In this document: in pieces, positions 14,644 to 48,511 of the stretch
Layout of the letters: the number at the start of each line of letters is the position of its first letter
Numbering within the stretch: position 1 is the stretch's first letter
DNA from: Escherichia phage AV112
Direction: 5' to 3' (one strand)
Length of the DNA stretch: 64,000 nucleotides
Sequence record: OR352942.1
Notes under the pieces: generated by a model
Told to the model about the DNA's origin: nothing
Database searches by the model: none
The model's input: the letters and a program-made list of their open reading frames with translations, nothing else
Position numbers and translations under genes: made by a program

Positions 14644-14871
14644 TCATTCTATTTCCTTTGCTGCAAATAAGGCAGCATCCAACGAATCAAATTGGTCAAC
14701 GAAATCAATATTCAATGCATCGTCATCCGTAGCATATAACCACCATTGTTTGAATTCGTATTCTAGAATAAATCCAGGACCTTCAATCTGAGGAAGACCT
14801 AGACTATTTGTACTAACTTCATAACCAGCTAGACGCAGGTCATTAATCAAAGTTTCTGTTAATACGTTCAT
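14644..14871 (-). CDS. Hypothetical protein
   Basis: 75 aa ORF upstream of gene 55 (T4 55.x region). Confidence 0.45.
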   Translation of the reverse strand: MNVLTETLINDLRLAGYEVSTNSLGLPQIEGPGFILEYEFKQWWLYATDDDALNIDFVDQFDSLDAALFAAKEIE

Positions 14872-15200
14872 TTTACCGCCTTAACAATTTTCAGGTCAAC
14901 GAATTTTTTCTTACGTTGATTTTTCATACGACGGATAGTCTTTTCAGAGATTTCATGTTTCTGATAAGCTTTAGATTCAACACCAAATGCAGCAACGTCA
15001 AATTCAGAAAGAATATATTGTACTAGAATTTCACGAATAGAATTACGTCCAATTTTCTGGTCGTGTTTTTGCATGATTTCATAAAGACGGAATTCCCACG
15101 CGTCAAGAACTTGAGGAGTAACAATATTGCCGGATTCAAGAAGAGCAACAACTTTATCGAAAGCGAAAGAATTAACTACGTTTTTGATTTTAGTAGACAT
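14868..15200 (-). CDS. Hypothetical protein
   Basis: Start placed at MSTKIKNVV, preceded by GAGGAAAATAAT-ATG; the longer ORF-track start would place the ATG inside the -10 element of the promoter repeat. Confidence 0.5.
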   Translation of the reverse strand: MSTKIKNVVNSFAFDKVVALLESGNIVTPQVLDAWEFRLYEIMQKHDQKIGRNSIREILVQYILSEFDVAAFGVESKAYQKHEISEKTIRRMKNQRKKKFVDLKIVKAVK

Positions 15201-15218: not shown

Positions 15219-15264
15219 TTTATTATCCAATGAGAGCATTATACTCTGCTCTCAAGAGTTTGTA
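15219..15264. repeat. 46-bp exact direct repeat, copy 1 (second copy at 45853..45898)
   Basis: tttattatccaatgagagcattatactctgctctcaagagtttgta occurs identically at both sites, each about 20 nt upstream of a minus-strand start codon. Confidence 0.8.
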
Positions 15265-15266
15265 AA
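15238..15266 (-). promoter_or_regulatory. Sigma70-type early promoter inside a 46-bp repeat
   Basis: Minus strand reads TTTACA, a 17-nt spacer, then TATAAT; the -10 hexamer sits in the loop of the palindrome TGAGAGCA/TGCTCTCA. Confidence 0.55.
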
Positions 15267-15269
15267 TCG

Positions 15270-43097: not shown

Positions 43098-43295
43098 TTA
43101 GCAAGAATAACTAGATGATACCCAGCCTTGAACAGTAATACTATTATTTGATACCGAGATTGCATTCTGGAGATTCAAACCTGCATTATCTTCAATCCAC
43201 AATGTAACTTCTTCGCGTTCTTCTGTTGCAATTTGGAACAGGTTTTCTAGGGCAGCTACTGCCGTACGTACAGCACAATCCAATTCACGAGACAT
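43098..43295 (-). CDS. Small protein, C-terminal W-V-SSS-x-SC family (member 1)
   Basis: 65 aa; ends QGWVSSSYSC. Confidence 0.45.
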   Translation of the reverse strand: MSRELDCAVRTAVAALENLFQIATEEREEVTLWIEDNAGLNLQNAISVSNNSITVQGWVSSSYSC

Positions 43296-43304
43296 GTAGT
43301 TTCC

Positions 43305-43577
43305 TTAGCAAGTGTGAGAAGATGCAATCCAACCACCAGTTTCAAGGCTCAGGTTGTAGTCGTATTGGTAAACGTCAGCCCATTCAGCATAGCCGTTTTT
43401 TGTACAACGTTCAAGATCGGCTTTAAGTTGTCCGGGTGAATGATATGTTCCACCCATACCATAAGCTGGATACAAGTCGAATGTTGTGTTTTGTTTATCA
43501 GCAATTTCTTTGGCAGCCTCAATAGCTGCATAGATTTTTGCTACGGCTTCAGCCAGTTCGGTTTGTTCTTTAGACAT
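43305..43577 (-). CDS. Small protein, C-terminal W-I-ASS-x-TC family (member 2)
   Basis: 90 aa; ends GGWIASSHTC. Confidence 0.5.
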   Translation of the reverse strand: MSKEQTELAEAVAKIYAAIEAAKEIADKQNTTFDLYPAYGMGGTYHSPGQLKADLERCTKNGYAEWADVYQYDYNLSLETGGWIASSHTC

Positions 43578-43586
43578 AATGATTCC

Positions 43587-43892
43587 TTAGCACAACGCAG
43601 AAGACGAAACCCAAGCACCTTCAGTAATAACGTAACCATTACCTTCACGCTTAACATCGCCACCATTATTTTCAATTTCATCTTTCATCCACTGGGATAC
43701 GATTTCACCCTTAGGATAATAAGTACGACCGCTACCATAATCACCTACAGAAAATGATACGGCGTATTGGTCTGCGATCTTTGTTGCTTCTTCTTCGATA
43801 CGTTCAGCTTGATTCAGAAGTTTATAAATTGCATCTGAAGCGGATTTGGCATCATTAAACTCTGGTACTTTAATTTCAATAATCTTACTCAT
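43587..43892 (-). CDS. Small protein, C-terminal W-V-SSS-x-LC family (member 3)
   Basis: 101 aa; ends GAWVSSSALC. Confidence 0.5.
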   Translation of the reverse strand: MSKIIEIKVPEFNDAKSASDAIYKLLNQAERIEEEATKIADQYAVSFSVGDYGSGRTYYPKGEIVSQWMKDEIENNGGDVKREGNGYVITEGAWVSSSALC

Positions 43893-44248
43893 TTTCTACA
43901 TTCCTTAATAAAGTTTTCGATTGTTTCATTTTCACGTCTAGCTAGGAGTTCATTATAACTAATCATTTGAGAAGCGTAAACCTTTTTATTTTTCTTGTTA
44001 TGGTTTATAAAATCGTAGTAAAAATAGACTACAGTACAAAATGATGCGATGGATGCAAAGGCTTGGGTATACCGTAAGTCCTGCCATTGGTCTGTGAATC
44101 CACCAGTGTTCCCTATAAATCCTAACACAACGCCGTCAATAAGAAATCCAACTAATCCAAAGGCAAATCCCATGCCAATACTCATAATAAAAATTAGAAT
44201 GTTCTCACCAAGAGAAGGCCATACGGTTAAGAGTTGAGGCTTTTGCAT
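43889..44248 (-). CDS. Membrane protein ending in a FIKECR motif
   Basis: 119 aa with two transmembrane helices; ends ENFIKECRK. Confidence 0.5.
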   Translation of the reverse strand: MQKPQLLTVWPSLGENILIFIMSIGMGFAFGLVGFLIDGVVLGFIGNTGGFTDQWQDLRYTQAFASIASFCTVVYFYYDFINHNKKNKKVYASQMISYNELLARRENETIENFIKECRK

Positions 44249-44622
44249 CTTATTTCCTTAACGAATTCCATAGCTTCTTCATATTCGTACTTTTTAACAG
44301 CTTCATCATACTGAGCTTGGGCTTTTGCGCACTGAACTTTCCATTCTCTTAATCGGGCTCTATAATGACGTCCTTGGTGCCAATATCCTACCCAATTAAT
44401 AGGCATTAATAAAAACGGTACAATAAGTGGTGCGACGAACATTAATGAAAATGCTGCATCAGACGATATAACTTCACTAGAATCTAAAACAGCTCCTATA
44501 ATCGTAAAGATTAAAAATGCTAAAGCTAAAATAGGGCCAAATAGTACTTCGTTTGGGATTAATTTACGCTTGTATTCATACGCCCAGGGCTTAATTGGCA
44601 TGTATAGGGTTGGCTTTGACAT
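44227..44622 (-). CDS. Membrane protein
   Basis: Start placed at MSKPTLYMPIK; two transmembrane helices; ends EFVKEIRCKSLNS. Confidence 0.45.
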   Translation of the reverse strand: MSKPTLYMPIKPWAYEYKRKLIPNEVLFGPILALAFLIFTIIGAVLDSSEVISSDAAFSLMFVAPLIVPFLLMPINWVGYWHQGRHYRARLREWKVQCAKAQAQYDEAVKKYEYEEAMEFVKEIRCKSLNS

Positions 44623-45208
44623 ATTCTCTACATTCCATAATAAATTGCTCAAGGATTAAATTGTTAGTGAAATTAGGACTAACAACCATGGTTTCATAAA
44701 GCGCATCAATAGCACTTAAAGCATCAACTCTTTTAAGCAAAGGCTTGCCTTCATACATAGTTTCAGAATCGACGATTAACGTAAAGTAATATTTTTTATT
44801 ATTGACCAGAACTTCTGTATCAATATAAAACATGTTAGATCTTAAAAGCTTATCTCTAAAACCATAATAATCTTCAGAGCGTTCGCTGATATATTCCAAT
44901 TCAGTGTTTAAACAACAAACAGACCACGTAGGAGCAACGAAATCAGTGAATCTAATATCATGGTCTGCAACTAGTTTAGCAATAGCTCCGATATCATGAA
45001 TCATAATACCTGGGGCTAATAAAGATTTTCGGTTATTTGCATATTCAGTTGTCTCATAAGAAGACGACCAGTACCATTTACGTCCAGTTGCAACATATCG
45101 TAATGAATCAACTAAAGACGTAGGTGGATTTACCTTATTTCGGAACTCTTCGAACATTGAGTCAATATCATTATTTTGGTTTCGCATGTTAACTCCTTTA
45201 TTATCCAA
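44591..45208 (-). CDS. Hypothetical protein with FIMECR near the C-terminus
   Basis: 205 aa ORF. Confidence 0.45.
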   Translation of the reverse strand: MDNKGVNMRNQNNDIDSMFEEFRNKVNPPTSLVDSLRYVATGRKWYWSSSYETTEYANNRKSLLAPGIMIHDIGAIAKLVADHDIRFTDFVAPTWSVCCLNTELEYISERSEDYYGFRDKLLRSNMFYIDTEVLVNNKKYYFTLIVDSETMYEGKPLLKRVDALSAIDALYETMVVSPNFTNNLILEQFIMECREYVKANPIHAN

Positions 45209-45236
45209 AAGGAGGACCGGAGTCCTCCGTATTATT

Positions 45237-45830
45237 TTATTTCAAAGAGTTAATATATTCTTGTACATCAGCAGAAGTGGTTTCGACACCAGCTGGAGTG
45301 CCATTGAACGTTTCAACACGAGTCAGAGTGTCTTCGATATCAACCTTAGTCAGTGCAGCGATTTCAATTACATCGTCAGCCGTAGAGATACCAAGGGCAT
45401 TGGCTGCTCGAGTTTCACGAATGTATTCGAGTTTGATTGCCAGGTTCTGACGAGCATCGTCAAGTTCAACCACCTTACGAGCAATTTCAATTCGCATAGC
45501 AGCGTACCCGTCAGCTTTTGTATTAAGTTGTTCGGCGGTTCGACGATACAGAAGACCAAGCTTAGCATGCATGGTAACATCTTGTCCTTCAGCCAGGAGC
45601 TTACGAATTTCAAGTTCCTTAGAAGCGGCTTGCTTATTCTTTTCATTAACAAGTTCGCGAATACGTTTTTCTTCATTAATAGATTTAACAGAAGCCGTTT
45701 TTAGTTCTTTGATTTGGGTAATCAACTTATCTGCGGCTGCGTTATACTGTTCTTCGACAGTCAGATTTTTAGCCATAGCAGTACCCAGTTTAGTGCGGAT
45801 GAATTCAACAAGTTTCTTCAGTGTGTTCAT
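45237..45830 (-). CDS. Coiled-coil protein (possibly PspA/IM30-like)
   Basis: Start placed at [10 protein letters not shown]; long heptad-rich helices; the PspA resemblance is by overall pattern only. Confidence 0.4.
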
Positions 45831-45852
45831 ATTATTACCTTTCAATTGGTGG

Positions 45853-45898
45853 TTTATTATCCAATGAGAGCATTATACTCTGCTCTCAAGAGTTTGTA
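45853..45898. repeat. 46-bp exact direct repeat, copy 2 (first copy at 15219..15264)
   Basis: Identical to copy 1; contains a TATAAT hexamer in the palindrome loop on the minus strand. Confidence 0.8.
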
Positions 45899-45901
45899 CA
45901 C

Positions 45902-46711: not shown

Positions 46712-46801
46712 AACATTTTCCTATGTTGTTGATAAGTCTATAGTATCATGTCCTTAGAAGAAGTAAACATCTTTATGAAATATTTTTATGCCCTAGATAC
46801 C

Positions 46802-46828
46802 AAAAAGCCCCAACCGTAAGGAAGGGGC
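46802..46828 (-). terminator. Rho-independent terminator (minus strand), copy of a recurring hairpin
   Basis: Plus strand reads aaaaa-GCCCCAACC-gtaa-GGAAGGGGC. Confidence 0.6.
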
Positions 46829-47299: not shown

Positions 47300-47343
47300 G
47301 TTGCTTTTCCTAAGTTAATTAACTTATCTATTTATTATTATGC

Positions 47344-47371
47344 AAAAAAGCCCCAACCTTTCGGAAGGGGC
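47344..47371 (-). terminator. Rho-independent terminator closing the tRNA/stable-RNA transcription unit
   Basis: Plus strand reads aaaaaa-GCCCCAACC-tttc-GGAAGGGGC. Confidence 0.6.
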
Positions 47372-47683: not shown

Positions 47684-47759
47684 TGGTCGAGACAGTAGGG
47701 GTCGAACCTACGACCTAGGACTTAGAAGGTCCTTGCTCTTCCTTCTGAGCTATGCCTCG
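47684..47759 (-). tRNA. tRNA-Arg (anticodon TCT)
   Basis: Manual cloverleaf: acceptor CGAGGCA/TGTCTCG, D-arm GCTC-AGAAGGAA-GAGC, anticodon loop CTTCTAA, T-arm GTAGG-TTCGACC-CCTAC, encoded CCA. Confidence 0.85.
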
Positions 47760-47763
47760 GATT

Positions 47764-47838
47764 TGGCGGACATGCATGGATTCGAACCATGGACCAATTG
47801 ATTAACAGTCAACTGCTCTACCACTGAGCTACACATCC
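47764..47838 (-). tRNA. tRNA-Asn (anticodon GTT)
   Basis: Manual cloverleaf: acceptor GGATGTG/CATGTCC, anticodon loop CTGTTAA, T-loop TTCGAAT, encoded CCA. Confidence 0.8.
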
Positions 47839-47842
47839 AAAT

Positions 47843-47929
47843 TGGTTGGGAGTGATGGAGTCGAACCACCTGAGTCGCAATGACAATGGATTTACAGTCC
47901 ACACCGCTACCTCTACGGGATAACTCCCC
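47843..47929 (-). tRNA. tRNA-Tyr (anticodon GTA), long variable arm
   Basis: Anticodon arm GTGGA-CTGTAAA-TCCAT, long variable arm, T-arm GGTGG-TTCGACT-CCATC, encoded CCA; the 5' acceptor boundary is uncertain by 1 nt (a 1:72 mismatch if the start is 47929). Confidence 0.6.
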
Positions 47930-47938
47930 AAATTAATT

Positions 47939-48013
47939 TGGTGGCCCTGGGTGGAATTGAACCACCATCTGGCGATTATGAGTCGCTTGCTTGAACCTTC
48001 CAGCTACAGGGCC
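47939..48013 (-). tRNA. tRNA with CAT anticodon (Ile-lysidine type as in T4, or Met)
   Basis: Acceptor GGCCCTG/CAGGGCC, anticodon loop CTCATAA, T-arm GGTGG-TTCAATT-CCACC, encoded CCA. Confidence 0.8.
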
Positions 48014-48014
48014 T

Positions 48015-48090
48015 TGGTGCTGATTGACGGAATTGAACCACCGACCTTCTCATTACAAGTGAGTTGCTCTACCTACTGAGCTAAATCAGC
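48015..48090 (-). tRNA. tRNA-Thr (anticodon TGT)
   Basis: Acceptor GCTGATT/AATCAGC, D-arm GCTC-AGTAGGTA-GAGC, anticodon loop CTTGTAA, encoded CCA. Confidence 0.85.
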
Positions 48091-48095
48091 AAAAC

Positions 48096-48185
48096 TGGCG
48101 GAGGCGATAGGATTTGAACCTATGAGTCGCCGGAGCGACTGCCGGTTTTCAAGACCGGTGCATTAAACCACTCTGCCACGCCTCC
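48096..48185 (-). tRNA. tRNA-Ser (anticodon TGA), type II
   Basis: Acceptor GGAGGCG/CGCCTCC, anticodon arm CCGGT-CTTGAAA-ACCGG, long variable arm, T-loop TTCAAAT, encoded CCA. Confidence 0.85.
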
Positions 48186-48187
48186 AG

Positions 48188-48261
48188 TCTCCATACAAGG
48201 ATTTGAACCTTGGACCTCCTGATCCCAAATCAGGCGCTCTACCAAACTGAGCTACACGGAG
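48188..48261 (-). tRNA. tRNA-Pro (anticodon TGG)
   Basis: Acceptor CTCCGTG/TATGGAG (C1:G72), anticodon loop TTTGGGA, T-loop TTCAAAT; CCA is not encoded. Confidence 0.8.
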
Positions 48262-48271
48262 TAAATTAAAT

Positions 48272-48345
<74 letters not shown>

Positions 48346-48350
48346 AAATT

Positions 48351-48437
48351 TGGTGCGAGAAGTGGGACTCGAACCCACAAGGAAATCATTCCGCAGCATT
48401 TTAAGTGCTGTGCCTTTACCAATTTGACCATTCTCGC
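48351..48437 (-). tRNA. tRNA-Leu (anticodon TAA), type II
   Basis: Acceptor GCGAGAA/TTCTCGC, anticodon arm CAGCA-CTTAAAA-TGCTG, long variable arm, T-arm GTGGG-TTCGAGT-CCCAC, encoded CCA. Confidence 0.85.
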
Positions 48438-48438
48438 G

Positions 48439-48511
48439 CTGGGAATAAAGGACTCGAACCTTTGCATCCTGGAATCAAAATCCAGTGCCTTACCAACTTG
48501 GCTAATTCCCA
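48439..48511 (-). tRNA. tRNA-Gln (anticodon TTG)
   Basis: Acceptor TGGGAAT/ATTCCCA (U1:A72, typical of Gln), anticodon loop TTTTGAT, T-loop TTCGAGT; CCA is not encoded; only 1 nt separates it from tRNA-Leu. Confidence 0.85.

What the first reader, a model, noticed from the sequence alone, without database searches (positions are those of the whole stretch)
45237..45830. Long coiled-coil protein with possible PspA/IM30 resemblance
A ~197-aa protein made almost entirely of amphipathic helices is driven by the duplicated 46-bp promoter. Its helical segment lengths resemble the membrane-stress protein PspA, which would be an unusual phage-encoded membrane-protection factor. The resemblance is by pattern only.
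Basis: inference. Interest (0 to 1): 0.35.

Follow-up and report, generated by a model that had tools for sequence, protein, structure and literature searches.

The report
T4 e.6: a phage-encoded PspA homolog
This early gene is the ortholog of T4 gene e.6, still listed as "unknown function"; it is a compact, very divergent relative of the bacterial membrane-repair proteins PspA and Vipp1, so T4-like phages appear to carry their own "phage shock protein".

Summary
Window 45237-45830 (minus strand) encodes a 197-aa protein predicted to be about 86% helical. It has a sigma-70-type early promoter, a near-identical second promoter copy at 15222-15267, and a terminator hairpin 9 nt after the stop.

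It is the ortholog of T4 e.6 (88% identity; the window is an RB69-like Mosigvirus). Public annotation calls it "hypothetical" or "host specificity protein".

- A 39-sequence family profile finds Vipp1 as the best PDB sequence hits (E 3.5e-5), collinear from residue 1.
- hhalign against a 17-sequence PspA/Vipp1 alignment gives 96.8% probability, score 71.7, over the full length. Reversed or shuffled controls score 27 or less.
- Two Ackermannviridae-type family members pass Pfam's own PspA_IM30 cut-off.
- Two AlphaFold models (helices 2-22, 25-80, 86-145, 152-174, 186-196) retrieve almost only Vipp1, PspA and ESCRT-III structures.

The window protein itself does not hit the Pfam model, and no Psp partner genes are nearby.

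T4 e.6 is transcribed early, detected as protein, and non-essential in two genome-wide screens. Membrane protection while host transcription is shut off is the likeliest role, but this is inferred.

I found no paper linking e.6 to PspA.

The parts
45237..45830 (-). CDS of 197 aa plus stop; ortholog of T4 gene e.6 (T4p129); divergent PspA/IM30/Vipp1-superfamily protein
   Evidence: ORF and sequence; 88% identical to T4 e.6; phrog_1203, unknown function; homology to PspA/Vipp1
45765..45827 (-). Residues 2-22: N-terminal amphipathic, cationic helix (alpha0 equivalent), the presumed membrane anchor
   Evidence: AF2 helix 2-22 at low pLDDT (~55). Hydrophobic moment 0.43 against 0.42 for E. coli PspA alpha0. 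Family mean net charge +3.4 against +0.8. Aligned residue-for-residue with PspA/Vipp1 alpha0.
45591..45758 (-). Residues 25-80: helix alpha1, first arm of the long hairpin
   Evidence: AF2 models, pLDDT 85-97; ungapped alignment to PspA 25-80
45576..45590 (-). Residues 81-85: hairpin tip (EGQDV), aligned with the PspA/Vipp1 tip motif (xGxExLA)
   Evidence: AF2 loop 81-85; hmmsearch and hhalign alignments
45396..45575 (-). Residues 86-145: helix alpha2/alpha3, second arm of the hairpin; ends in the family's most conserved motif, [13 protein letters not shown]
   Evidence: AF2; conservation in alignments A2 and A3
45309..45377 (-). Residues 152-174: alpha4-like helix (low confidence); its 'RVETF' aligns with the PspA 'ARFESFE' / Vipp1 'FERME' region
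   Evidence: AF2 model 2, H152-174, pLDDT 40-56; hhalign alignments
45243..45275 (-). Residues 186-196: alpha5-like C-terminal helix ([12 protein letters not shown]), aligned with the PspA/Vipp1 C-terminal 'ELAALKA' motif
   Evidence: AF2; hhalign; Y192 is nearly invariant in the family
45838..45843 (-). Shine-Dalgarno-like GAAAGG, 7 nt upstream of the ATG
   Evidence: read directly from the sequence
45856..45901 (-). 46-bp sigma-70-type early promoter: -35 TGTACA at 45895-45900, -10 TATAAT at 45872-45877. A 7-bp inverted repeat, GAGAGCA/TGCTCTC, brackets the -10.
   Evidence: promoter scan; pattern search; positional match to a T4 promoter-like site upstream of e.6
45211..45228 (-). Intrinsic-terminator-like hairpin GGAGGACTCCGGTCCTCC followed by TTTT, 9 nt after the stop. 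It makes e.6 a promoter-gene-terminator unit.
   Evidence: terminator scan; a terminator is also listed after e.6 in the T4-like phage UFV13 (PMC5931544)
15222..15267 (-). Second copy of the 46-bp promoter (44/46 identical), upstream of a 110-aa phrog_1475 gene (14868-15200) near gene 55

Best explanation
The gene is the Mosigvirus ortholog of T4 e.6. Its product is a compact (197 aa against about 220), highly divergent member of the PspA/IM30/Vipp1 branch of the ESCRT-III superfamily.

Shown here:
- Full-length collinear homology to PspA/Vipp1.
- The same predicted helix plan: alpha0, an alpha1/alpha2-3 hairpin, alpha4 and alpha5.
- An N-terminal amphipathic helix in the same register as PspA alpha0, but more cationic.
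- A stand-alone promoter-gene-terminator unit with a sigma-70-type early promoter.

Taken from the literature: the T4 ortholog is transcribed early, made as protein, and dispensable in standard laboratory infection.

Inferred mechanism: soon after infection the protein binds the cytoplasmic face of the inner membrane through alpha0 and the hairpin. It self-assembles as PspA and Vipp1 do. It stabilises or reseals the membrane and keeps the proton-motive force. This would matter during genome injection, during the insertion of many small phage membrane proteins, and during holin accumulation.

The phage supplies this itself because T4-type host transcription shut-off would stop the cell from inducing its own sigma-54/PspF-dependent psp operon.

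My probabilities: homology to PspA/Vipp1 about 0.9; PspA-like membrane binding and oligomerisation about 0.6; the specific role (protecting membrane integrity and proton-motive force for the phage's benefit) about 0.35-0.4.
For: Identity of the gene: 100% DNA identity to Escherichia phages AV113 and RPN187 (Mosigvirus); 88% protein identity to T4 e.6; same position between nudE-e.2..e.5 and e.7/e.8/tRNAs.

Sequence homology:
- hmmsearch of family profile A3 against 177,635 PDB sequences puts Synechocystis and Nostoc Vipp1 at the top (E 3.5e-5, 8.8e-5, 1.1e-4, 1.8e-4, 7.4e-4...). The alignment runs 1-146 to 1-147. E. coli PspA is collinear but weak (E 1.2).
- hhalign of A3 against 17 PspA/Vipp1 sequences: probability 96.8%, P 2.5e-10, score 71.7, 198 columns.
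- Controls: reversed alignments score 21.7 and 24.1; forty block-shuffles have mean 17.6 and maximum 26.8; circular shifts show the score building up along the homologous register.
- Subsets: 22 close sequences give 69-84%; 26 T4-like sequences give 93%; the 13 divergent ones give 96.5%; close against divergent gives 99.9%, E 2.7e-35.

Transitive link: P0181 (39.0 bits) and P0175 (35.1 bits) pass the Pfam PF04012 gathering score of 33.9. The e.6 profile found them at E 6e-17 and 1e-19 in 1.8 billion proteins. P0181 hits T4-like e.6 genes by tblastn.

Fold: AF2 pLDDT 75.5 and 77.1, with the hairpin at 85-97. In the Foldseek PDB search the top 10 and top 12 hits are Vipp1, PspA or CdvB2. The best is 7o3w_A, E 8.4e-4 and 8.9e-5, probability 1.00. 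The hairpin fits 6zvs_A with TM 0.70 and rmsd 3.0 A.

alpha0: hydrophobic moment 0.43 against 0.42; family charge +3.4.

Expression and dispensability of T4 e.6: early RNA / middle protein (PMC9697503 supplement); CRISPRi-ART 'Not Fit' (PMC11879866 supplement); HIDEN-SEQ 43/43 sites hit, 'Non-essential' (bioRxiv 10.1101/2025.11.20.689424 supplement).

Promoter and terminator.
Against: - The window protein, and all 22 of its close relatives, give no direct hit to Pfam PspA_IM30 or to any NCBIfam PspA model.
- A single-sequence PspA template gave hhalign probability 0.8%.
- Identity to PspA is only about 12% in the hhalign alignment.
- Coiled-coil composition inflates profile scores (bias 16-18 bits; a prefoldin scores E 6.8e-4).
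- AF2 confidence is low for alpha0 and for residues 150-185.
- About 20 residues of the PspA alpha4-alpha5 region are missing, and the 'EDP' motif after alpha0 is not kept.
- There are no PspB, PspC, PspF or LiaI-like partners, and no conserved neighbour at all.
- No phenotype is known: e.6 is non-essential and shows no fitness effect in two T4 screens. In the one conditional comparison I read, log2FC was -0.20 and not significant.
- Membrane binding, oligomerisation and any effect on proton-motive force are untested.
Confidence: 0.6

Rival explanations
1. e.6 is a PspA mimic that targets the host Psp system instead of the membrane. It would bind PspF (as PspA does, to repress it), or bind PspB/PspC, or co-polymerise with host PspA. 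The effect would be to silence or redirect the host envelope-stress response.
For: The homology to PspA covers alpha0 and alpha1, which in E. coli PspA mediate membrane sensing and PspF control (established knowledge; alignment). All ten most frequent host genera of phages carrying the family are Enterobacterales or Aeromonas; from my own knowledge these hosts have classical PspF-ABC systems. The gene is expressed early.
Against: Identity to E. coli PspA is very low. Host PspA is among the weakest matches to the e.6 profile (E 77 against 2e-5 for cyanobacterial Vipp1). That argues against recent mimicry of the host protein. T4 shuts off host transcription anyway, so repressing PspF would add little. 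No interaction was tested.
Confidence: 0.12
2. e.6 is an ESCRT-III-like membrane remodeller used for a phage-specific purpose other than protection. Candidates are resealing the inner-membrane channel after DNA injection, superinfection exclusion, organising membrane-associated head assembly or replication sites, or countering membrane-permeabilising abortive-infection effectors.
For: Same structural evidence as the best explanation. PspA and Vipp1 do remodel, fuse and tubulate membranes (titles and abstracts of bioRxiv 10.1101/2025.06.13.659447 and PMC12636044). Early timing. An accessory, non-essential gene in a hyperplastic region fits a conditional or anti-defence role.
Against: No conditional phenotype is reported for e.6 in the HIDEN-SEQ main text, which covers RexAB, RnlAB, CBASS and clinical strains. 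There is no PADLOC or defence-related hit and no conserved partner. The idea is entirely speculative.
Confidence: 0.2
3. The resemblance is convergent. e.6 would be a generic antiparallel coiled-coil hairpin protein (for example a scaffold or adaptor) whose composition and helix lengths merely mimic PspA.
For: There is no direct Pfam hit for the window protein. Coiled-coil families give many marginal hits. Foldseek TM-scores are only 0.4-0.55, with large rmsd over the full length. A prefoldin appears at E 6.8e-4.
Against: Reversed and shuffled controls, which keep composition and heptad character, score 27 or less against 71.7. The alignment is collinear from residue 1 to the C-terminal motif. 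Two family members pass Pfam's curated PspA_IM30 threshold. PspA, Vipp1 and ESCRT-III dominate both Foldseek lists over thousands of other coiled coils. The large rmsd is expected, because the solved structures are open polymer conformers.
Confidence: 0.07

Closest known systems
E. coli PspA (phage shock protein A; Pfam PF04012 PspA_IM30; PDB 4WHE)
   Same: Full-length collinear profile alignment, 1-197 to 1-222. Same order of helices. The N-terminal amphipathic helix has hydrophobic positions in the same register and an equal hydrophobic moment. The hairpin tip is at residues 81-85 in both. The C-terminal 'LxxLK' helix is shared.
   Different: About 12% identity. 25 residues shorter, mostly in the alpha4-alpha5 region. 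No 'EDP' motif. alpha0 is more cationic. Encoded by a virulent phage behind a sigma-70-type early promoter, not a sigma-54/PspF-controlled stress operon. No pspBCDE or pspF neighbours. Direct HMM match not significant (E 1.2 against 4whe).
Vipp1/IM30 of cyanobacteria (Synechocystis sll0617, Nostoc; PDB 7O3W, 6ZVR, 8QFV, 9EOM)
   Same: Best sequence hits (E 3.5e-5) and best structure hits (E 8.9e-5, probability 1.00) for the e.6 family. alpha0 through alpha3 align without large gaps.
   Different: Vipp1 has an extra C-terminal helix (alpha6) and forms thylakoid-associated rings. e.6 ends after alpha5. Hosts of these phages have no thylakoids. Oligomer state of e.6 is unknown.
Canonical PspA/IM30 proteins already annotated in viruses (for example Acinetobacter phage vB_AbaM_ME3 'PspA/IM30 family protein', two human-gut phage contigs MT835668/MT839532, and giant-virus Snf7 proteins)
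   Same: Virus-encoded members of the same superfamily. They appear as weaker Foldseek hits to the e.6 model (BFVD ranks 7 and 13).
   Different: Those are ordinary-length proteins of about 225 aa, detectable directly (29-30% identical to Vipp1), and rare: 2 of 50,697 phage records by tblastn. The e.6 family is a separate, much more divergent clade. It is unrecognised in annotation and present in 1101 records by tblastn with the window protein, plus Ackermannviridae records found with P0181.
Bacillus LiaH / archaeal and eukaryotic ESCRT-III (CdvB, Snf7/CHMP)
   Same: Shared hairpin-based fold. CdvB2 (9s97) and Snf7 (5fd9) appear in the Foldseek list.
   Different: No sequence-level signal to Snf7 models. 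No Vps4/CdvC-type ATPase or LiaI-type anchor nearby. LiaH was not compared here.

Membership tests
PspA/IM30/Vipp1 family (Pfam PF04012) | Direct match of the protein to the family HMM above the curated gathering score (33.9 bits) | tested here: not met
   No PF04012 hit at E <= 10 for the window protein or for any of its 22 close relatives. No NCBIfam PspA hit.
PspA/IM30/Vipp1 family (Pfam PF04012) | Membership by transitive or intermediate sequences: clear relatives of the query that pass the family threshold themselves | tested here: met
   P0181 scores 39.0 bits (E 8.9e-10) and P0175 35.1 bits (E 1.4e-8), both above 33.9; P0179 scores 22.3 bits. The e.6 profile found these at E 6e-17, 1e-19 and 1e-17. 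They align to the close family at hhalign 99.9%, E 2.7e-35.
PspA/IM30/Vipp1 family (Pfam PF04012) | Profile-profile similarity over the whole length, above composition-matched controls | tested here: met
   hhalign 96.8%, score 71.7, 198 columns. Reversed controls 21.7 and 24.1; forty shuffles at most 26.8. Robust to sub-sampling either alignment. PDB hmmsearch puts Vipp1 on top at E 3.5e-5.
PspA/IM30/Vipp1 family (Pfam PF04012) | Fold: alpha0, a long alpha1/alpha2-3 hairpin, then alpha4 and alpha5 | tested here: met
   Prediction only. AF2 gives helices 2-22, 25-80, 86-145, 152-174 and 186-196. Foldseek PDB top hits are Vipp1, PspA and CdvB2. alpha0 and alpha4 have low pLDDT.
PspA/IM30/Vipp1 family (Pfam PF04012) | N-terminal amphipathic membrane-binding helix alpha0 | tested here: met
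   Hydrophobic moment 0.43 (PspA 0.42, Vipp1 0.57). Family mean 0.40 and net charge +3.4. Same register in the alignments. Actual membrane binding was not tested.
PspA/IM30/Vipp1 family (Pfam PF04012) | Self-assembly into rings, rods or carpets, and membrane binding or remodelling | not testable with these tools
   Needs purified protein with liposomes and EM, or multimer modelling, which is not available here.
Enterobacterial Psp system (pspF-pspABCDE) | Genomic association with PspB/PspC membrane partners and the PspF activator; sigma-54 stress-inducible expression | tested here: not met
   Neighbours are phage ORFs of unknown function (phrog_2607, 2604, 2330, 13919...). None is conserved next to distant e.6 homologs. 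The promoter is sigma-70-type early. The e.3- and e.4-like genes downstream look like two-span membrane proteins by eye, but they lie beyond the terminator and are not conserved with e.6.
ESCRT-III proper (Snf7/CHMP/CdvB; Pfam PF03357) | Sequence match to Snf7 models; a Vps4/CdvC-type AAA ATPase partner | tested here: not met
   No Snf7 hit among the hits listed for the query, or among the 25 families most often hit by family members. Only weaker fold-level hits to CdvB2 and Snf7. No AAA ATPase nearby.

The most novel reading that the evidence does not exclude
T4-like (Straboviridae) and Vi1-like (Ackermannviridae) phages carry their own ESCRT-III-type membrane-repair polymer. It would be made within minutes of infection. 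It would seal and stabilise the inner membrane, and keep the proton-motive force, after tail-tube puncture and during holin loading, or it would neutralise membrane-permeabilising abortive-infection effectors. It would replace the host Psp response that the phage's own transcription shut-off disables. This would be the first functional viral ESCRT-III/PspA system in bacteria, sitting unnoticed in the model phage T4.
Probability: 0.3. Interest if true: 0.8.

Novelty: new member of a known kind. Interest (0 to 1): 0.6.

Why it matters
T4 is the best-studied virulent phage, yet e.6 is still listed as a conserved hypothetical protein. Automated labels call it 'host specificity protein', and PHROGs lists it as unknown.

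Placing it in the PspA/Vipp1/ESCRT-III superfamily gives a concrete, testable function to a gene found in more than a thousand sequenced phages of Enterobacterales and Aeromonas.

It suggests that maintaining the inner membrane is a task the phage takes over from the host. It also extends the bacterial ESCRT-III superfamily to a compact viral clade.

A 2024 survey of Psp evolution and a 2025 review of bacterial and archaeal ESCRT-III-like systems do not discuss phage-encoded PspA homologs.

The compact 197-aa form could also be a useful minimal model for PspA assembly.

The gene is non-essential in the laboratory, so any biological importance is probably conditional.

Tried and rejected
- Direct library scans (Pfam, NCBIfam, PADLOC) of the window protein gave only marginal coiled-coil noise and no PspA hit. 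PHROGs gave phrog_1203, 'unknown function'.
- phmmer of the single protein against PDB sequences: no hit at E <= 10.
- hhalign of the close-family alignment against a single E. coli PspA sequence: 0.8%. This is uninformative because the template was a single sequence, not a profile.
- Two attempts to get a diverse PspA alignment returned only Enterobacterales PspA at 78% identity or more, so they added little depth. These were search for homologous proteins with E. coli PspA and a genome-contig scan. I built the alignment instead from plasmid and phage tblastn hits plus the Vipp1 sequence printed by the PDB search.
- Synteny: I looked for conserved partners next to distant homologs, namely Klebsiella phage phi1_146010, Aeromonas phage AS-yj and two metagenomic contigs. 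Only e.6 itself is shared. A PspBC-like partnership with the e.3/e.4-like membrane proteins is therefore not supported.
- Recent capture from the host: rejected. E. coli PspA is among the poorest matches to the e.6 profile.
- 'Host specificity protein' and 'tail completion protein' labels: I found no evidence for either. They are automated labels (ACLAME, UniRef, BFVD).
- Literature searches for any link between e.6 and PspA/ESCRT-III found none.
- The T4 genome review (PMC150520) is not held.
- I read only one of several conditional HIDEN-SEQ comparisons for e.6.
Full report
**1. What is at the coordinates**

Window 45237-45830 carries, on the minus strand, an ORF of 197 codons (ATG at 45830, TAA at 45239-45237). 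The mechanical ORF list starts it at a TTG five codons earlier. Every homolog begins at the ATG, and GAAAGG lies 7 nt upstream of it.

Upstream, at 45856-45901(-), is a sigma-70-type promoter, TGTACA-17-TATAAT. A terminator-like hairpin (45211-45228) followed by TTTT lies 9 nt after the stop. The gene is therefore a self-contained promoter-gene-terminator unit.

A copy with 2 mismatches lies at 15222-15267(-), against 0 expected by chance. The 25-nt core is identical in both copies and occurs nowhere else in the window. That second copy precedes a 110-aa phrog_1475 gene next to gene 55.

**2. Which gene it is**

The 3.2 kb around the gene is 100% identical to Escherichia phages AV113 and vB_EcoM-RPN187 (Mosigvirus, RB69-like). 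The protein is 88% identical to the T4 protein encoded at 69312-69905, gene e.6 (T4p129). It sits in the same order: nudE, e.2-e.5, e.6, e.7/e.8, RNA C/D and the tRNA cluster. Ten tRNA genes lie just upstream in the window.

T4 has a GTTTAC...TATTAT promoter-like site at the same place.

Public names are "e.6 conserved hypothetical protein", [quoted passage not shown], "hypothetical protein", or an automated "host specificity protein". PHROGs lists phrog_1203 as unknown function.

tblastn finds the gene in 1101 of 50,697 phage records. The most frequent hosts are Escherichia, Klebsiella, Shigella, Aeromonas, Enterobacter, Yersinia, Citrobacter, Salmonella and Cronobacter.

**3. First tests of the PspA idea were negative**

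- The protein gives no Pfam, NCBIfam or PADLOC hit beyond coiled-coil noise.
- It gives no PDB sequence hit by phmmer.
- None of its 22 close relatives hits PspA_IM30.
- hhalign of that shallow alignment against a single E. coli PspA sequence gave 0.8%.

**4. Deeper tests were positive**

*Family search.* An exhaustive HMMER search of 1.8 billion representatives with the family profile found only 45 proteins. Most are about 200 aa and the rest are shorter fragments. Identity to the query falls to 17%. Several of the most divergent begin MSIFQRL..., MGILSRI..., which recalls PspA (MGIFSRF) and Vipp1 (MGLFDRL).

*PDB sequences.* A profile of 39 of these (A3) searched against all PDB sequences puts Vipp1 first:
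- 8qfv, E 3.5e-5
- 9eom, E 8.8e-5
- 8qhv, E 1.1e-4
- 7o3w, E 1.8e-4
- Nostoc Vipp1, E 7e-4 to 1e-3

The alignment runs 1-146 to 1-147, collinear from the first residue. E. coli PspA is collinear but weak (E 1.2).

*Profile against profile.* I assembled 17 PspA/Vipp1 sequences. They were E. coli PspA, Synechocystis Vipp1, homologs from Nostoc, Klebsiella, Aeromonas, Rhodococcus, Niallia and a haloarchaeon, two gut-phage contigs, and seven Enterobacterales. hhalign of A3 against this alignment gives probability 96.8%, P 2.5e-10, score 71.7, over 198 columns. It covers e.6 1-197 and PspA 1-222, including the C-terminal "YLxSLK" / "ELAALKA" helix.

*Controls*:

| Comparison | hhalign score |
|---|---|
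| Real alignments | 71.7 |
| PspA alignment reversed | 21.7 |
| e.6 alignment reversed | 24.1 |
| Forty 7-column block shuffles | mean 17.6, maximum 26.8 |

Circularly shifted templates recover exactly the homologous segment.

*Sub-sampling*:

| Query set | Result against PspA/Vipp1 |
|---|---|
| 22 close T4-like sequences | 69% (84% against seven cellular PspAs) |
| 26 T4-like sequences | 93% |
| 13 divergent sequences | 96.5% |

The close and divergent groups match each other at 99.9%, E 2.7e-35.

*Pfam link.* Five of the 39 members hit Pfam PF04012 directly. Two exceed its curated gathering score of 33.9 bits: P0181 at 39.0 bits and P0175 at 35.1 bits. P0181-type proteins belong to phages of about 158 kb (Klebsiella phages Zahir and vB_KpnM-20, Escherichia phage FEC14, Salmonella phage moki). 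I take these to be Ackermannviridae from the names I recognise and from genome size. The tools did not return a taxonomy line for them. P0181 also finds T4-like e.6 genes by tblastn.

**5. Structure**

Two AlphaFold2 runs (22 and 39 sequences) give mean pLDDT 75.5 and 77.1. The second model has helices 2-22, 25-80, 86-145, 152-174 and 186-196. The 25-145 hairpin is at pLDDT 85-97. alpha0 (~55) and residues 150-185 (40-56) are uncertain.

Foldseek against the PDB returns Vipp1, PspA or archaeal CdvB2 in nearly all of the first 10-12 places for both models. The best is 7o3w_A, E 8.4e-4 and 8.9e-5, probability 1.00. The hairpin fits 6zvs_A with TM 0.70 and rmsd 3.0 A over 122 columns. Other hairpin proteins (chemoreceptors, SMC arms, p85 iSH2) come later with lower probability.

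Large full-length rmsd values are expected, because the solved structures are open polymer conformers.

Against predicted viral structures, the best matches are family members in Citrobacter, Erwinia, Serratia and Klebsiella phages. A Megaviridae Snf7 protein follows at rank 7 and the annotated PspA/IM30 protein of Acinetobacter phage ME3 at rank 13.

The N-terminal helix has the same hydrophobic register and moment as PspA alpha0 (0.43 against 0.42). It is more cationic: family mean +3.4 against +0.8.

**6. Differences from canonical PspA**

- Identity is about 12%.
- About 20 residues of the alpha4-alpha5 region are absent.
- The "EDP" motif after alpha0 is replaced (consensus KNxSxE).
- The family has its own strongly conserved [13 protein letters not shown] motif at the end of alpha3.
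- There are no PspB, PspC or PspF genes nearby. All neighbours are unknown-function PHROGs.
- Across distant loci only e.6 itself is conserved. In Klebsiella phage phi1_146010 the gene sits between nrdD plus a homing endonuclease and nrdG.
- E. coli PspA is among the weakest matches to the e.6 profile, so recent capture from the host is unlikely.
- Canonical PspA is rare in phages. tblastn with Vipp1 finds 2 unverified gut contigs among 50,697 records.

**7. What is known experimentally about T4 e.6**

- The transcript is early and the protein is in the middle class (PMC9697503 supplement).
- CRISPRi-ART knock-down is "Not Fit", meaning no fitness effect (PMC11879866 supplement).
- In HIDEN-SEQ, 43 of 43 TA sites tolerate insertions, so the gene is "Non-essential". 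The one conditional comparison I read gives log2FC -0.20, not significant. e.6 is not mentioned among conditionally essential genes in the main text.
- None of these papers assigns a function.
- Searches for e.6 or T4 together with PspA, Vipp1 or ESCRT-III found nothing relevant.
- A 2024 PSP evolutionary survey and a 2025 ESCRT-III review do not discuss phage homologs.

**8. Mechanism**

Shown: homology, the predicted fold, the amphipathic cationic alpha0, and the early-type promoter-gene-terminator unit.

From the literature: early expression and dispensability.

Inferred from what PspA and Vipp1 do (membrane binding through alpha0 and the hairpin, self-assembly, protection against proton leak): e.6 binds the inner membrane early in infection and stabilises it. 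I rely for this on established knowledge and on the titles and abstracts listed.

A rationale, which is also inference, is that T4-type shut-off of host transcription would prevent induction of the host's sigma-54/PspF-dependent psp operon. That is exactly when the membrane is punctured and loaded with phage membrane proteins and holin.

Rivals are a decoy acting on host PspF/PspBC/PspA, another remodelling role (resealing, exclusion, anti-defence), or convergence. The controls make convergence unlikely.

**9. Verdict**

The function remains to be tested.

I file the gene as a new, unannotated and unusually compact viral clade of a known superfamily. Interest is moderate to high, because it concerns T4 itself, is widespread, and is directly testable. 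It is tempered by the lack of any phenotype so far.

Noticed in passing
window 45856-45901(-) and 15222-15267(-): The two near-identical promoter copies share a perfect 7-bp inverted repeat (GAGAGCA ... TGCTCTC) that brackets the -10 TATAAT. Identity extends about 50 bp, far beyond the promoter consensus. This recalls the 'PeSL' promoter/stem-loop cassettes proposed to mediate modular gene shuffling in T4-type phages (PMC2839356, PMC4122927). In Klebsiella phage phi1_146010 the e.6 homolog sits in the nrdD-nrdG region (L092). From my memory of the T4 map, not checked here, that is the same part of the genome as gene 55, where the window's second copy lies.
   Followed up: partly
window 43098-43892(-): Three tandem small genes (43098-43295, 43305-43577, 43587-43892) all end in a W[IV][AS]SS..C motif. 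The last two both match the C-terminal part of phrog_899. The 48-nt direct repeat D1 (43290-43337 / 43572-43619, 71% identity) marks their junctions. This looks like a tandem paralog expansion at the position of T4 e.2.
   Followed up: partly
window 43889-44248(-) and 44227-44652(-): The e.3-like (phrog_2330) and e.4-like (phrog_2604) genes downstream of e.6 and e.5 look, from their hydrophobic stretches, like proteins with two membrane spans. They are conserved with T4 (35% and 54% identity). They are not found next to distant e.6 homologs and lie beyond the e.6 terminator, so a PspBC-like partnership is not supported.
   Followed up: partly
window 46797-46828 and 47340-47371: Two copies (84% identical) of a G+C-rich hairpin that reads on the minus strand as GCCCCTTCC..GGTTGGGGC followed by a T run. 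They are terminator-like elements, one upstream of the 167-aa gene and one upstream of the 154-aa gene. The second closely resembles the terminator listed after RNA C in a T4-like phage (PMC5931544).
   Followed up: no
window 47684-48511(-): A cluster of 10 tRNA genes (Arg, Asn, Tyr, Met, Thr, Ser, Pro, Gly, Leu, Gln). It has no segB-like homing endonuclease inside it, unlike T4, where segB splits the cluster. The roughly 380-nt gap between the 154-aa gene and tRNA-Arg may hold RNA C/D homologs.
   Followed up: no
L084 (MT835668.1 3476-4144) and L085 (MT839532.1 2206-2883): Two unverified 'Bacteriophage sp.' contigs from human faeces encode canonical full-length PspA/IM30 proteins (225 and 227 aa, 29-30% identical to Vipp1). 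They were the only canonical PspA hits in the 50,697-record phage collection. Whether these contigs are really viral was not checked.
   Followed up: no
L092 (Klebsiella phage phi1_146010) 3097-4594: In this phage the e.6 homolog lies directly downstream of a homing endonuclease gene, between nrdD and nrdG. That fits the e.6 gene being moved as a cassette.
   Followed up: no
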